Part shown: piece after piece, positions 56,591 through 61,852 of the stretch
How the letters are laid out: each line of letters begins with the position of its first letter
Numbering within the stretch: the first letter of the stretch is position 1
NCBI RefSeq assembly: GCF_009914755.1
Contig: NC_060939.1
From: the human T2T-CHM13v2.0 reference genome, Homo sapiens
Reading direction: 5' to 3' (one strand)
DNA length: 64,000 bases
Made by a program: the position numbers and the translations under genes
The notes under the pieces: model-generated
The model's input: the letters and a program-made list of their open reading frames with translations, nothing else
What the model was told of the DNA's origin: nothing
The model's database searches: none

Positions 56591-56769
56591 TGAGGGTTCA
56601 GAGAAGCCCCATCCTAAGCCAGACACATGATGTGGGCTCAGCTCAGTGGCCTGAAACCTCTCAGGTTTTAGAGTCTCTCCCAAGAAGCCGCTTTTTTCTT
56701 TTTCTTTCTTTCTTTTTTTTTTTCTTAGCAGATACAATGAATGAACTGCAAGCAAACTAAAATTCTGTT

Positions 56770-56792
56770 ATTAAAAAAAATCTTTTATTAAA
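56770..56792. terminator. Poly(A) signals of SLC51B (+; ATTAAA 56770-56775 and 56787-56792) and RASL12 (-; AATAAA 56784-56789)
   Basis: hexamers read directly; convergent gene ends; GT-rich downstream elements on both strands. Confidence 0.8.
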
Positions 56793-57876
56793 ATGCTCCT
56801 GGAAGGGAGCAGGTGGTATTGCATAGTTTGTTCAGATGGCAGTGGTACACACACACATACACACACAAGTGGCCTGGAGCAAAAGTGCAAAATCCGTAGC
56901 TGGCCTGTGGGTCGGGAAGCCTGTAGGACTGCAAGCATGTGGTCTTGAGTAGTTCACAGCCCCCCTCTGACCTCAGCTCCTCCATTTACAGAATGAGTCC
57001 GAAGACTGGGTCAGAGATGCTGTTTGCAATCCAACAGTAGTCCTGAGACTGCTGAGAGGGGAAGGAGCAGGCTTCCAGGCCCAGAATCCCCTTCCCAATC
57101 CTTCCACCCACCAGGACCCTCTCTTTTCCCTGCTTGTCTGCTAAGAGTCTGTGCAAGACTTCCCTGGGACCTGGCGTGTGGTAAACAAAATCAGACAACT
57201 ACCACACTGCCTGCCTTGGACAGCCTTTTCTTGCTAACAGTGGGATCTCAAAGGTGTGTCCTGATCCCATGTCTGAGCCATGGTGTCTTGGTATAAGCTG
57301 CGGTGACACCACCAAATAACATAAGCAAAATTTTGCTTTATTAACCCAAAATGCTTTAGGTTCTAAAGTGGGCTTTGAACACTCAGACTCATTGCTGAGG
57401 GTCCTGGGTCCTGCCAAACCAGATGACAAACGGGTATACTGTGTTTCTACCTGCAGGGGGGCAGGCCCTGTAGCCCCTGGATGGGTCTGATGCTGCTGTG
57501 GGCTCCCTGGAGCCCTGGGTAACTCACTGGAGTGACAACTTTCTTCTGCAGCCTGGATCATTAAGCTTGAGGGAGCTGATGCTGAGGTTCTTTGGACAGA
57601 GTCCTTAACAGTGGGAAAACACATGGAGAATCTGTCTGCTGGTGAAAGAACTCTGGGGCTCCTTATGCTGGACAACCTACAGTCCCTCCCTTTTATCCTC
57701 ATTGAGACGCCAAGTGTTGGAAATACCCCTTCCTGGGGCTTCTGTCCATTGGATTATTTTAACTAGATTTTCCTTGGATAAACTGTGGGGTTTGTAGCCT
57801 GGGCCTTCTGTGAAGTCAGCAGATGACAGGAGGGCCAGGCTCTGGCCTCTGAAACTGCAGCCGCCCTGCCTTTCCC

Positions 57877-58324: not shown

Positions 58325-58700
58325 TCAGAAGATCTTGAAGCCCTTCAGGAGAGTCAGGGTAGGCGCCTTGCGCTTGCTCTGGGCCCGGGATGACTTCACG
58401 GTGACCAGCTTGGCCTGGGCCACAGTGGGCATCTCCTTCAGGTTGATGGTGGAGAGCGTGTTGAAGGTGCAGCTGGCCAGCCCATGCCGCGCGGTGAGCG
58501 GGGCCTGGTGGGGCAGGGCCCTCTCCTCGGAGATGAAGAGGGGCCGGGTCAGGGGGCTCTTCTCCAGCTCCCGCCGTGCCTCTCGCACTGCCTCGTGGAA
58601 GACATGCTGCACGTGCTCAAAGTCCAGACAGGCAGAGACCTCGAAAAACAGGCACCCAAACCTGCCTGCCAAAGCCACACCCTCTGCCTTGGTGACTTGC
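58325..58700 (-). CDS. RASL12: RASL12 last coding exon (G5 motif and C-terminal extension)
   Basis: acceptor caccag|G; QVTKAEGVALAGRFGCLFFEVSACLDF...TLLKGFKIF-TGA. Confidence 0.97.
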
Positions 58701-58769
58701 CTGGTGAGGAAGCAGTGTGAGGCAGGGAGTTAGGAGCAGGCTGTGCCAAGTCAGGCAGACCAGCTCCTA

Positions 58770-58958
58770 CACCCAGCGCCCCATGGACTAGCTGGGTGGC
58801 CTGGGGTCATCTTCACCTCTCTGAGTCTCAGCGTTCTTATCAGTACAGTGGGTTACTGCCCTCTGCCTCTCAGGGTTGTTAGGATTACGAAAGACAATTT
58901 GTTTCAAGTGCTTAGCACAGTACCTGGCACAGAGTCAGTGCTCAATAAATGGTAGCTG
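58770..58958 (+). mobile_element. MIR
   Basis: agggttgttaggatta...cttagcacagtacctggcacagagtcagtgctcaataaatggtagct. Confidence 0.8.
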
Positions 58959-59228
58959 ATGTCACCCAGGCCAGAATTTTGGGATGAGGGTAAGGGTAAG
59001 AAGCTACTCCAAATCCCCTATGCTAGACCCTGCCTGTGGCTGGAGGAAGCAGGCCATTCCCAGCCCCATCTCTTCTCTACCCCATCGTGGGTCCCTGGGG
59101 CAGGAAACAGGCCACCCACAGCTCTGGCTTGTGGGATCAGCTCTAGAGAGAAGCAGTCGTTTGGACTGAAGGGTTAGACCACAGAGGTGACTCCAGAAGC
59201 CTGTGGTTGGCAGAGTTCTCAGGGCTCC

Positions 59229-60005
59229 TGGGGTTTGTGTTTGTGAAAATTCATTATTCAAGCCCTCACAATGACAAAGTTGCAGATTCAAGCTCATCAT
59301 AAAAGCAAATAATAAAACCAGGGCAGAGGCAGGAGAGGGCAGGGGGGACAACATTTCATGGTGAGGAGGGCAAAAGGAGAGAGGGGGCAACACCTATTCT
59401 GCCTTGGTCCTACACCACCTCCCGTGAAGGGAGGATAGAATATCCGGAACTTGGGAAGGTCCTGGAGGCTTCTGACCTGAAAGCCATGGGAATCGAGGCG
59501 GGAAGAAAAAGAAGACTGGCCTTGCATAGGTCGGATGTCTACAAGAGGGAAGAGATGGGGGGGTCCCTGAGGTCTTGGGGCCAAGACTCCACTGGCTGGA
59601 TCTTCCTGACCTACTGCTGAGCTGTCCCGCTGCCCATTCCCGAGGATAATGGCACAGCCACTAGATGAGAGGAGGCACTCGAGTGGGCCATGGTGGGAAA
59701 AGTTTCTGAGCCCAAGGCTGACCTGGCAGGAGCAGGGGCTGAGAGTGGGCTAGCTTCCCAGAGTGCCACTCCATGGTGAGGCACGCGGTCTCAGAGAGAG
59801 TGAGTAACTGGGACAAAAAAGAGTCAGAGGCATCGGATCTATTCCCCACCCAGGGCTGGGTGCCCTGGTGCCAGTAAGCTCACCGCTTCCTGAGGAACCC
59901 TTTTGGAAAGAACACTTGCTATTATTTGCTTTTATGATGAGCTTGAATCTGCAACTTTGTCATTGTGGGGGCTTGAATAATGAATTTTCACAAACACAAA
60001 CCCCA
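59229..60005. repeat. Non-Alu inverted repeat, 86-bp arms (59229-59314, 59920-60005), 605-bp spacer
   Basis: arms are reverse complements at 85 of 86 positions (59266 T vs 59968 G). Confidence 0.97.
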
Positions 60006-61415
60006 TGTGTGCGTGCATGTGTGTGAGTGGGTGACAGAGGCACAGAACATTGTCCTTTTTCTTATTTTGTTGCATCCTAGGGAAAATTTTATCAGTGGCT
60101 TGGGAAGCATCAACCTAACCGACATTTTACCCTTTTAACAGTGAGACAGTCGTGGGAGACAATGGCCAATGCTCAGCTAAAAGTTAGACTTCCTGTGCTT
60201 CCCAGAATCCTAATCTACTAAACTTGGGACTTGATCGAAGAATGAAATAGGAATACATTGTCCTGAGTTGTTTTTAGGGAACGGGTGGGATCAGCTTCAT
60301 TTGAGCATGTATGCTTTGTTATTTGCTCCCAAACCATTTTAGACAATCCCTTTGGCAAAGATTGGGGTCAAAAGAGTGATCTGTGCTTTTTTCCCTGTAC
60401 TGAAAACTGGCCTACTCACAATCCAGTCTTCTGACCCCTAAGAGGGTCTGCAATTCCTCAAAGACTACCTTCAGCAGCTTTCAGGTCACATGACTTCCCT
60501 CATTCTCTGAGACACAATTTGCCTAGGTCTGAGGGCTTGGCCACCTTTGAAGGCCTCTCACCATAGTCCCCTTTCACGGTCCCACACCTCTCTTTTTCCC
60601 ACGGCCCATCTGACCCGTTCTAAACAAAGGGTCCCTTCCTTGCTAACACCAGTCAATGTGCCCTTGGGGCCTAGGGCAGCAGGACTGACCAACCGTGAAC
60701 AGGGAGGGATGAGTGGCTGGTGGAAGGGGCTATCCCTTGCAGGTAGACTGGCCACAGAGGACAAAGGTCAGTGCTGGAGAAATCCAGTGGCATTACTCAT
60801 CAAGTTCAGGCATCACAGTGTCAAATGCTTCAGGGCCAGGCGGGCAACTTGAATGTGTGGAAAGGGTGGAGGTAAACCACGGGGAGTGGTGAGGCCTGGG
60901 GTCGGCTGGAGAGAGCGTGCCCCACCTCAAAGCATTCCAATTCTAGGTCTTTTAAGACACTATGCCAGCCAAGCAAAATATGGCTGCAGTATTCTTCAGT
61001 AATGCATCCTCTGGCCCAGTCTCTGACCTCCGATTCGAGTCCAACCCTTTCTAAGAGAACCTGCCCTCAGCCCAGCCAACTGTGGGAGTGAGAGTGGGAG
61101 GCTGCGTCTGGGTGAGGTGAGAGCCGATTGGACCAGAGCAGACACCTGACCAAGGAGCCCATCAGAGCCTCTCTCCTTAGAATTGGAATTGGGCACTAGA
61201 CCAGTCAGCTGCTGGGAGTGAGATCGGAAGGTCAGATAGATTCATGCAAGAAGGGTGAGTCCAAGAGAATCCACAGAGACCCAAGAGCGCGGAAGGAGTG
61301 GCCACTCTTCTGACTTTCAGGGTGCAGTTGCTGTGTGACCCAGAAGCGTTTCCCTTCAAGTCCTTGGCTGCCTGGAAGACCAACATCTACCATACCCTTA
61401 CAACATAATCCCTGT

Positions 61416-61780
<365 letters not shown>

Positions 61781-61852
61781 TCAAGATGCCACCTGACCTT
61801 ACAAGTGAAGAAAGCGAGCTCTGGAGATAAGGGCCAAGCAGGCTGTGCTCAC

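What the first reader, a model, noticed from the sequence alone, without database searches (positions are those of the whole stretch)
59229..60005. 86-bp near-perfect non-Alu inverted repeat in the last RASL12 intron
Seen: 59229-59314 and 59920-60005 are reverse complements at 85/86 positions around a 605-bp spacer. The arms match no repeat I recognise and there is no TSD. In RASL12 pre-mRNA the single mismatch is A (59266) opposite C (59968), the pairing ADAR prefers; on + it is a G-U wobble. Human DNA transposons are long extinct, so such identity implies a recent template-switch duplication, ongoing arm-to-arm conversion or selection for pairing. Inference: a long dsRNA stem (editing, small-RNA source, splicing control) and/or a flippable 0.6-kb micro-inversion.
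Basis: partly seen in the sequence, partly recalled or inferred. Interest (0 to 1): 0.8.

Follow-up and report, generated by a model that had tools for sequence, protein, structure and literature searches.

The report
Unique inverted duplication in RASL12 intron
An 86-base piece of ordinary single-copy human DNA sits twice, in opposite orientations 605 bases apart, inside an intron of RASL12; it is most likely a harmless scar of a DNA copying or repair accident, which also lets the unspliced RNA fold back on itself.

Summary
59229-59314 and 59920-60005 are reverse complements at 85 of 86 positions around a 605-bp spacer. Similarity stops abruptly at all four arm ends.

The arms, the spacer and the right flank are single-copy in the 3.1-Gb assembly; the arm occurs only at these two places. 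There is no target-site duplication. It is therefore not a transposon and not an Alu pair.

In 264 kb of contiguous sequence it is the only one of 268 nearby inverted pairs at 97% identity or more. The next three best pairs are Alu.

On the RASL12 sense strand the arms are predicted to form a -143 kcal/mol duplex with one A:C mismatch.

Best reading: one primate-lineage replication or repair accident. This was either a template switch or an inversion with a staggered break that left an inverted duplication. The right arm ends at the edge of a 22-nt alternating pyrimidine/purine tract. The likely by-product is a nuclear dsRNA stem that ADAR could edit.

No outgroup, population or RNA data were available. 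Age, polarity, inversion polymorphism, editing and function are all untested. This is an ordinary member of a known class; modest interest.

The parts
59229..59314 (.). Left arm of the inverted repeat (86 nt, GC 34%). It is the 3' arm of the stem in RASL12 pre-mRNA.
   Evidence: 85/86 to the reverse complement of the right arm; only two places in the genome.
59920..60005 (.). Right arm of the inverted repeat (86 nt). It is the 5' arm of the stem in RASL12 pre-mRNA. Its base composition fits the AT-richer right flank better than the GC-richer spacer and left flank.
   Evidence: flank GC: left 55-60%, spacer 57%, right 43-45%, arm 34%.
59315..59919 (.). 605-bp single-copy spacer (GC 57%, 12 CpG). 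It is purine-rich on the + strand (GC skew +0.18, AT skew +0.18) and has no annotated exon.
   Evidence: the hub's gene table.
59266..59266 (-). The only mismatch. It is A on the sense strand, in a G-A-G context, opposite C at 59968. On the + strand it is T opposite G.
59968..59968 (-). Partner of the mismatch (C on the sense strand).
60004..60025 (.). 22-nt perfect alternating pyrimidine/purine run (a Z-DNA-type motif). It begins 2 nt inside the outer end of the right arm and is a candidate site of the break or stall that started the rearrangement.
   Evidence: 2 runs of 20 nt or more in the 64-kb window; 11 in 264 kb; post-hoc P about 0.006 that any of the 4 arm ends lies within 2 nt of such a run.
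59315..59390 (+). Purine-rich stretch abutting the inner end of the left arm. 59315-59345 is 84% purine, and 59360-59390 is one of 30 blocks in the window with 90% or more purine or pyrimidine. Such blocks are common, so this is weak evidence.

Best explanation
This is a single-copy inverted duplication. One 86-bp piece of unique intronic DNA was copied once, in reverse orientation, 605 bp away, by a single replication or repair accident somewhere in the primate lineage.

Two mechanisms of the same family fit.
(a) Template switch. The growing strand left its template, copied 86 nt of the opposite strand nearby, and returned. This gives a pure insertion, and the spacer keeps its ancestral orientation.
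(b) Inversion of the 0.6-kb segment with one staggered break. Filling in the 86-nt overhang leaves the same sequence at both ends in inverted orientation, and the spacer is inverted relative to the ancestor.

The event probably began at a stall or break at the alternating Py/Pu tract that starts at the outer end of the right arm.

The structure is most likely selectively neutral. Its predictable consequence is that RASL12 pre-mRNA (minus strand) folds into an 86-bp duplex with one A:C mismatch, looping out 605 nt about 0.5 kb upstream of the last 3' splice site. That duplex should be a nuclear substrate for promiscuous ADAR editing and is removed with the intron.

Shown: the anatomy, the uniqueness, the sharp ends, and the predicted fold. 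Inferred: the mechanism, the age, neutrality and editing.
For: 1. The repeat is real and sharp-edged. It matches 85 of 86 positions, and identity falls to random level (21/60 and 13/60) immediately outside both ends of both arms. This is what one discrete copying event predicts. A decayed larger or older repeat would not look like this.
2. It is single-copy. The arm has 2 places in 3.1 Gb, with 2 of 2 first-look candidates scored. The spacer has 1 place and the right flank 1 place. In the 1501-nt search, 43 matches came from 59 candidates, 40 of them scored. Three of the 43 are the region itself, and the other 40 all fall in 58900-58962, a MIR-like piece outside the structure.
3. It is an outlier among local inverted repeats. 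Of 268 inverted pairs in 264 kb, 1 reaches 97% identity or more (this one). The next three, at 93-96%, are Alu, with 204-248 hits each in the 264 kb against 2 for this arm.
4. One arm end coincides with a 22-nt alternating Py/Pu run. Such motifs form Z-DNA with unpaired junctions and are linked to breaks and mutation (PMC12887540, passages).
5. There are precedents. Template switching creates perfect inverted repeats from nearby sequence in great apes (PMC7954356, passages). Staggered-break inversions leave inverted duplications of unique sequence 46 bp to 1.9 kb long, and in 12 of 18 cases at one breakpoint only (PMC1885836, passages).
6. The RNA stem is predicted. An 831-nt fold gives -350.2 kcal/mol with z = -10.07 against 20 shuffles. 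The arm duplex is -143.4 kcal/mol. In a 1500-nt fold, 83 of 86 arm pairs form.
Against: - No outgroup or second human assembly could be examined, so it is not shown that an ancestor lacked one arm or that the event is recent.
- Microhomology at the junctions is at most 1 nt, which is weak for a microhomology-primed switch.
- The copy lies 605 nt from its template. That is at or beyond the 'tens to hundreds of nucleotides' of described short-range switches.
- The coincidence with the Py/Pu tract was noticed post hoc (P about 0.005-0.01).
- Near-identity could instead be kept by gene conversion in an older repeat.
- The own-genome search only demonstrably finds copies of about 81% identity or more over 36 nt or more, and it skips very common words. 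A very old, highly diverged repeat family cannot be excluded, and no transposon library was available.
Confidence: 0.6

Rival explanations
1. An old inverted repeat whose arms are kept nearly identical, either by recurrent arm-to-arm gene conversion or by selection for base pairing. In the second case it would be a functional dsRNA stem affecting RASL12 splicing, 3'-end choice, editing or small-RNA production.
For: 99% identity in a non-repeat is what conversion or selection would give. The stem is very stable on both strands (-143.4 and -147.3 kcal/mol) and forms in larger contexts. The one mismatch is A:C on the sense strand, and a single A:C mismatch within a helix is edited more often than the average helix site (PMC3091650).
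Against: There is no trace of older, decayed similarity beyond the 86 nt. No exon lies between the arms. There is no Rfam match: 2 weak hits elsewhere in 58700-60600, at 24.9 and 20.8 bits against gathering scores of 88. Long near-perfect intragenic duplexes are reported to be selected against, not for (PMC7006430). 86 bp is a short substrate for sustained conversion (recalled). Searches found nothing relevant. The A lies behind a G, the least favoured upstream neighbour.
Confidence: 0.13
2. The 0.6-kb spacer is an invertible segment. The arms recombine (NAHR), so both orientations segregate in people.
For: The geometry allows it, with identical inverted arms flanking a short segment. Recurrent repeat-mediated inversions exist in humans (PMC3961182: title and abstract in the listing; the passages read were on iPCR methods and did not bear on repeat size).
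Against: Arms of 86 bp are far shorter than the repeats usually reported to mediate human inversions (recalled). Only one haplotype was available, so there is no positive evidence. This reading is not exclusive of the best explanation.
Confidence: 0.07
3. The arms are the terminal inverted repeats of a DNA transposon or MITE.
For: The shape alone: an inverted repeat flanking an internal segment.
Against: The arm has only two copies in the genome, the internal part has one, and there is no TSD. 99% arm identity is incompatible with the long-extinct human DNA transposons (recalled).
Confidence: 0.02
4. An assembly artefact, or a variant private to the CHM13 haplotype.
For: Only this one assembly could be read. 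Scans for a 24-mer of the arm found 0 records in genome contigs and 0 in viral contigs, so there is no independent copy of the locus in hand.
Against: The structure is clean and has no N. A mismatch between the arms and unique flanking sequence are not what a fold-back read artefact would give. The assembly is a finished telomere-to-telomere one (the hub's note).
Confidence: 0.06

Closest known systems
Short-range template-switch mutations (the 'four-point' model of Loytynoja and Goldman; Walker et al. 2021, PMC7954356)
   Same: A reverse-complement copy of nearby unique sequence creates a perfect or near-perfect inverted repeat with sharp ends. Such events are known to occur in great-ape genomes and to create hairpins.
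   Different: Described events involve templates within tens to hundreds of nucleotides, and mostly shorter copied tracts. Here 86 nt were copied from 605 nt away. The ancestral state was not observed.
Inversions with inverted duplications at the breakpoints from staggered breaks (Ranz et al. 2007, PMC1885836)
   Same: Unique, non-repetitive sequence is duplicated in inverted orientation at the two ends of a segment. The described duplications are 46 bp to 1.9 kb long and are often at one breakpoint only.
   Different: This was described for large Drosophila inversions. Here the segment is only 0.6 kb, it is in human, and inversion of the spacer relative to an ancestor is not shown.
Intragenic inverted duplicated sequences that form dsRNA in pre-mRNA (inverted Alu pairs; Barak et al. 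2020, PMC7006430)
   Same: Both arms lie in one intron of one transcript and are predicted to pair. Such duplexes are ADAR substrates.
   Different: The arms are not Alu or any other multi-copy repeat. At 99%, identity is far above the 77-87% of the window's 25 longest inverted pairs. At 86 bp it is below the 300-bp class that study singled out. RASL12 is not in the study's 3 held supplementary files.
MITE or DNA-transposon terminal inverted repeats
   Same: Inverted termini around an internal segment.
   Different: No family, no TSD, and only two arm copies in the genome.

Membership tests
DNA transposon / MITE | Many related copies in the genome | tested here: not met
   The arm has 2 places, the spacer 1 and the right flank 1 in 3.1 Gb at E<=10. 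The search demonstrably finds copies of about 81% identity or more over 36 nt or more.
DNA transposon / MITE | Target-site duplication directly flanking the termini | tested here: not met
   The flanks do not repeat. A 6-nt word recurs 4 nt outside each end of the left arm only, and it does not abut the arm.
Inverted Alu / SINE pair | The arms are SINE copies | tested here: not met
   The arm has 2 hits in 264 kb, against 204-248 for the Alu arms of the next-best pairs.
Template-switch inverted duplication | Reverse-complement copy of nearby sequence with sharp boundaries | tested here: met
   85/86 identity, then random-level identity beyond all four ends.
Template-switch inverted duplication | Copy absent from the ancestral or outgroup sequence | not testable with these tools
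   No primate or other vertebrate genome is held. Pattern scans of genome contigs and viral contigs found 0 records.
Template-switch inverted duplication | Template within tens to hundreds of nucleotides; microhomology at the switch points | tested here: inconclusive
   The distance is 605 nt, at the outer edge of the described range. There is at most 1 nt of possible microhomology at the outer junction.
Staggered-break inversion with inverted duplication | Inverted duplication of unique sequence at the ends of a segment, 46 bp to 1.9 kb long | tested here: met
   86-bp unique arms; size range from PMC1885836.
Staggered-break inversion with inverted duplication | The segment between the duplicates is inverted relative to the ancestor | not testable with these tools
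   There is no outgroup. Strand-skew comparison of the spacer with the rest of the intron was uninformative.
Repeat-mediated polymorphic inversion | Both orientations present in the population | not testable with these tools
   Only one haplotype is held.
ADAR-edited intronic dsRNA | Both arms in one transcript, with a stable long duplex | tested here: met
   The hub's annotation places both arms in intron 58701-61852. Folds are (83 of 86 pairs in a 1500-nt context).
ADAR-edited intronic dsRNA | A-to-G mismatches observed in RNA | not testable with these tools
   No RNA data are held. The 'RASL12' + 'RNA editing' search gave 2 papers, both irrelevant from the listing only.
Known RNA family (miRNA and others) | Match to an Rfam model at the gathering score | tested here: not met
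   The 2 matches in 58700-60600, both outside the arms, score 24.9 and 20.8 bits against gathering scores of 88.

The most novel reading that the evidence does not exclude
The duplication is specific to humans or hominids and is not neutral. By creating a near-perfect 86-bp duplex 0.5 kb upstream of the last 3' splice site, it would give RASL12 pre-mRNA a new ADAR- or dsRNA-binding-protein-dependent control point. Alternatively, it would form a 0.6-kb segment that still flips between orientations in people. In either case it would be a dated, single-event example of a replication error creating a functional RNA structure in a human gene.
Probability: 0.06. Interest if true: 0.6.

Novelty: new member of a known kind. 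Interest (0 to 1): 0.25.

Why it matters
This is a clean example, free of repeat elements, of how a single replication or repair error can create a long and nearly perfect RNA hairpin inside a human gene. Its breakpoint sits on a non-B-DNA motif.

If primate alignments show when it arose and which arm is the copy, it would be a neatly datable case for two lines of work: template switching and small inversions, and the fate of young dsRNA structures (editing or purging).

On the evidence here it has no demonstrated function and is probably one of many such neutral scars.

Tried and rejected
- **Transposon termini:** rejected on copy number and the absence of a TSD.
- **Alu or SINE origin:** rejected.
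- **Known RNA family:** nothing found.
- **Older, larger decayed repeat:** no residual similarity beyond the arms.
- **Spacer orientation from strand skews:** the spacer has GC skew +0.18 and AT skew +0.18. Eight 605-nt windows of the same intron range from -0.12 to +0.13 and -0.12 to +0.14. This is suggestive at most and too noisy to use.
- **Old repeats spanning a junction, to polarise the event:** none exist. The only multi-copy piece is 58900-58962, outside the structure.
- **Junction microhomology:** at most 1 nt, which is uninformative.
- **Independent copies of the locus as contaminants in other collections:** 0 in genome contigs and 0 in viral contigs.
- **Literature searches:**
  - 'RASL12' + 'inverted repeat': 0 papers.
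  - 'RASL12' + 'inversion': 4 papers. By title and abstract start, two are MRI white-matter studies and the other two are unrelated. I assume the MRI hits are on 'inversion recovery' and did not read them.
  - 'RASL12' + 'RNA editing': 2 papers, irrelevant by listing.
  - 'RASL12' + 'dsRNA': 1 paper, a congress abstract book.
  - 'RASL12' + 'structural variant': 0 papers.
  - These searches cover main texts only, so supplementary tables of editing sites or structural variants could still list this locus.
- **Barak 2020 supplements (3 files held):** no RASL12.
- **Human-chimpanzee microinversion paper (PMC8755829, abstract only):** its events are 17-33 nt, a different scale.
- **Great-ape comparison paper asked for by a recalled id:** not held.
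- **Base rate of such repeats:** this rests on 264 kb only, because further genome stretches were not available.

Full report
**Observation**

The window sequence and the repeat finder show arms 59229-59314 and 59920-60005. They are 86 nt long, 99% complementary, and 605 nt apart. A direct comparison gives 85 of 86 matches without gaps. The single difference is T at 59266 against G at 59968 on the + strand. On the minus strand, which is the sense strand of RASL12 by the hub's annotation, this is A opposite C.

The repeat ends abruptly. Ungapped extension matches 21 of 60 positions outward and 13 of 60 inward. Gapped local alignments of the 300-nt flanks score 12 and 10, against shuffle means of 10.6 and 10.8. 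No direct repeat abuts the unit, so there is no target-site duplication.

**Is it a repeat element?**

Searches of the window's own 3.1-Gb assembly gave the following.
- The 86-nt arm has two places, which are the two arms themselves.
- The same holds for the arm with 14-nt flanks at E<=10, with 2 of 2 candidates scored.
- The 605-nt spacer has one place.
- The 795 nt to the right have one place.
- In the 1501-nt search of 58900-60400 there were 43 matches from 59 candidates, 40 of them scored. Three are the region itself. The other 40 all fall in 58900-58962, which reads as a MIR-type SINE core by my recognition, not by any library.

This search demonstrably picks up copies of 81-97% identity over 36-63 nt. 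It skips very common words and gives lower bounds. A very old family diverged beyond that range cannot be excluded, and no transposon library was available. Within those limits the arms are single-copy DNA duplicated once, not transposon termini and not SINEs.

**How unusual is it locally?**

I joined the window to the 200 kb that follow it and self-compared the 264 kb.
- Inverted pairs of 40 nt or more with a gap of 3 kb or less: 268. Twelve reach 90% identity, two reach 95%, and one reaches 97%. That one is this repeat.
- Direct pairs under the same filters: 373, with one at 95% or more and none at 97% or more.
- The next three inverted pairs (93-96%) have arms with 204-248 hits each in the 264 kb, so they are Alu. 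This arm has 2 hits.
- The 25 longest inverted pairs of the window itself are 77-87% complementary.

A wider sample could not be drawn, so the genome-wide frequency of such structures remains unknown. Barak et al. (PMC7006430, passages) count very many inverted duplicated sequences above 96% identity in pre-mRNAs across 49 species. As a class, then, these are not rare.

**Anatomy around the junctions**

The arm is AT-rich (GC 34%). The left flank has GC 55-60% and the spacer 57%, while the right flank has 43-45%. By composition the right arm looks more at home than the left. That is a weak hint that the right arm is the original.

The outer end of the right arm coincides with the start of a 22-nt perfect alternating pyrimidine/purine run, 60004-60025. 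There are two such runs of 20 nt or more in the window and 11 in the 264 kb. The post-hoc chance that any of the four arm ends lies within 2 nt of one is about 0.006. Such tracts can adopt Z-DNA with unpaired junction bases and are associated with breaks and mutation (PMC12887540, passages).

The inner end of the left arm abuts a purine-rich stretch, with 84% purine over 59315-59345. Such stretches are common, with 30 blocks in the window. Microhomology at the junctions is at most 1 nt.

**Mechanism**

A sharp-edged, single-copy, near-identical inverted duplication is the expected product of one replication or repair accident. Two described mechanisms give exactly this shape.

- *Template switching.* This produces a reverse-complement copy of nearby sequence and creates perfect inverted repeats. 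It is documented in great-ape genomes, for templates within tens to hundreds of nucleotides (PMC7954356, passages). At 605 nt, this case is at the far end of that range.
- *Inversion by staggered breaks.* This leaves inverted duplications of unique sequence at the ends of the inverted segment. In Drosophila they are 46 bp to 1.9 kb long, and in 12 of 18 cases sequence from only one breakpoint is duplicated (PMC1885836, passages).

The two differ in whether the spacer is inverted relative to the ancestor. I could not test this. No vertebrate outgroup is held, strand skews were too noisy, and no old repeat spans a junction.

Dating is loose. One difference in 86 nt is 1.2%. With recalled human mutation rates of 0.5-1 x 10^-9 per site per year, and the exact Poisson interval for one event (0.025-5.6), this allows roughly 0.2 to 60 million years. 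That is an inference, and it assumes no gene conversion. 'Recent' therefore means 'within primates', not necessarily human-specific.

**RNA consequence**

Both arms lie in intron 58701-61852 of NM_016563.4.
- The 831-nt minus-strand fold pairs the arms, at -350.2 kcal/mol against -259.0 +/- 9.1 for 20 shuffles (z = -10.07).
- The isolated arm duplex is -143.4 kcal/mol on the sense strand, with the A:C position unpaired. On the + strand it is -147.3 kcal/mol.
- In a 1500-nt context, 83 of 86 arm pairs form.
- The two arms carry 31 and 26 adenosines on the sense strand.

A duplex of this length is a plausible substrate for promiscuous ADAR editing. This rests on established knowledge and on PMC7006430. 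It is not tested here.

It is weak as evidence, for two reasons. Any transition in one arm gives A:C on one of the two strands. And this A has G upstream, the least preferred neighbour, with G downstream, the most preferred.

No annotated exon lies between the arms, so the structure cannot drive exon skipping or back-splicing of a known exon. Rfam gives nothing at the arms.

**Literature**

No paper in the held library connects RASL12 with an inverted repeat (0 papers) or a structural variant (0 papers).
- 'RASL12' + 'inversion' gave 4 papers. Judged from titles and abstract starts only, two are MRI white-matter studies and two are unrelated.
- 'RASL12' + 'RNA editing' gave 2 and 'RASL12' + 'dsRNA' gave 1. 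All were irrelevant by listing.
- The three held supplementary files of Barak 2020 do not contain RASL12.

These searches do not cover the supplementary tables of other papers, so the locus could still be listed in editing or variant catalogues.

**Verdict**

The most likely explanation (0.6) is a neutral, primate-lineage inverted duplication. It would have come from a template switch or a staggered-break micro-inversion, probably started at the alternating Py/Pu tract, with a predicted but unverified dsRNA stem as a by-product.

Rivals:
- An old repeat kept by conversion or selection: 0.13.
- A segregating flippable segment: 0.07, not exclusive of the best explanation.
- An artefact or private variant: 0.06.
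- Transposon termini: 0.02.

This is a new instance of a known kind of mutation. Interest is modest unless primate and RNA data show lineage specificity together with editing or orientation polymorphism.

Noticed in passing
window 58790-58962 (minus strand): A SINE-like element, which reads as a MIR core by my recognition. It lies just upstream of the last 3' splice site of RASL12. It is the only multi-copy piece in 58900-60400: 40 of the 43 matches in the own-genome search fall at 58900-58962.
   Followed up: partly
window about 61420-61700 (minus strand): An Alu in antisense orientation relative to RASL12, near the 5' end of the same intron (read; recognised by eye). It has no inverted partner within this intron that I looked for.
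   Followed up: no
window 60272-60345 (+): A weak Rfam hit to mir-5912 at 24.9 bits against a gathering score of 88 (E = 0.0097). Most likely chance.
   Followed up: no
window 56763-56823: By the hub's gene table, the 3' ends of SLC51B (+ strand, ends at 56823) and RASL12 NM_016563.4 (minus strand, last exon starts at 56763) overlap tail to tail by 61 nt. This is a potential natural antisense pair in mature mRNAs. A 23-nt alternating Pu/Py run lies next to it at 56845-56867.
   Followed up: no
window 59220-59225 and 59319-59324: The same 6-nt word occurs 4 nt before and 4 nt after the left arm. It does not abut the arm and the following bases differ, so it is not a target-site duplication. Possibly chance.
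   Followed up: partly
264-kb coordinates 135463-135565 (G000:C15 about 62941463-62941565): A 103-nt alternating purine/pyrimidine tract rich in AT, AC and GT steps, the longest of the 11 runs found in the 264 kb downstream sample.
   Followed up: no
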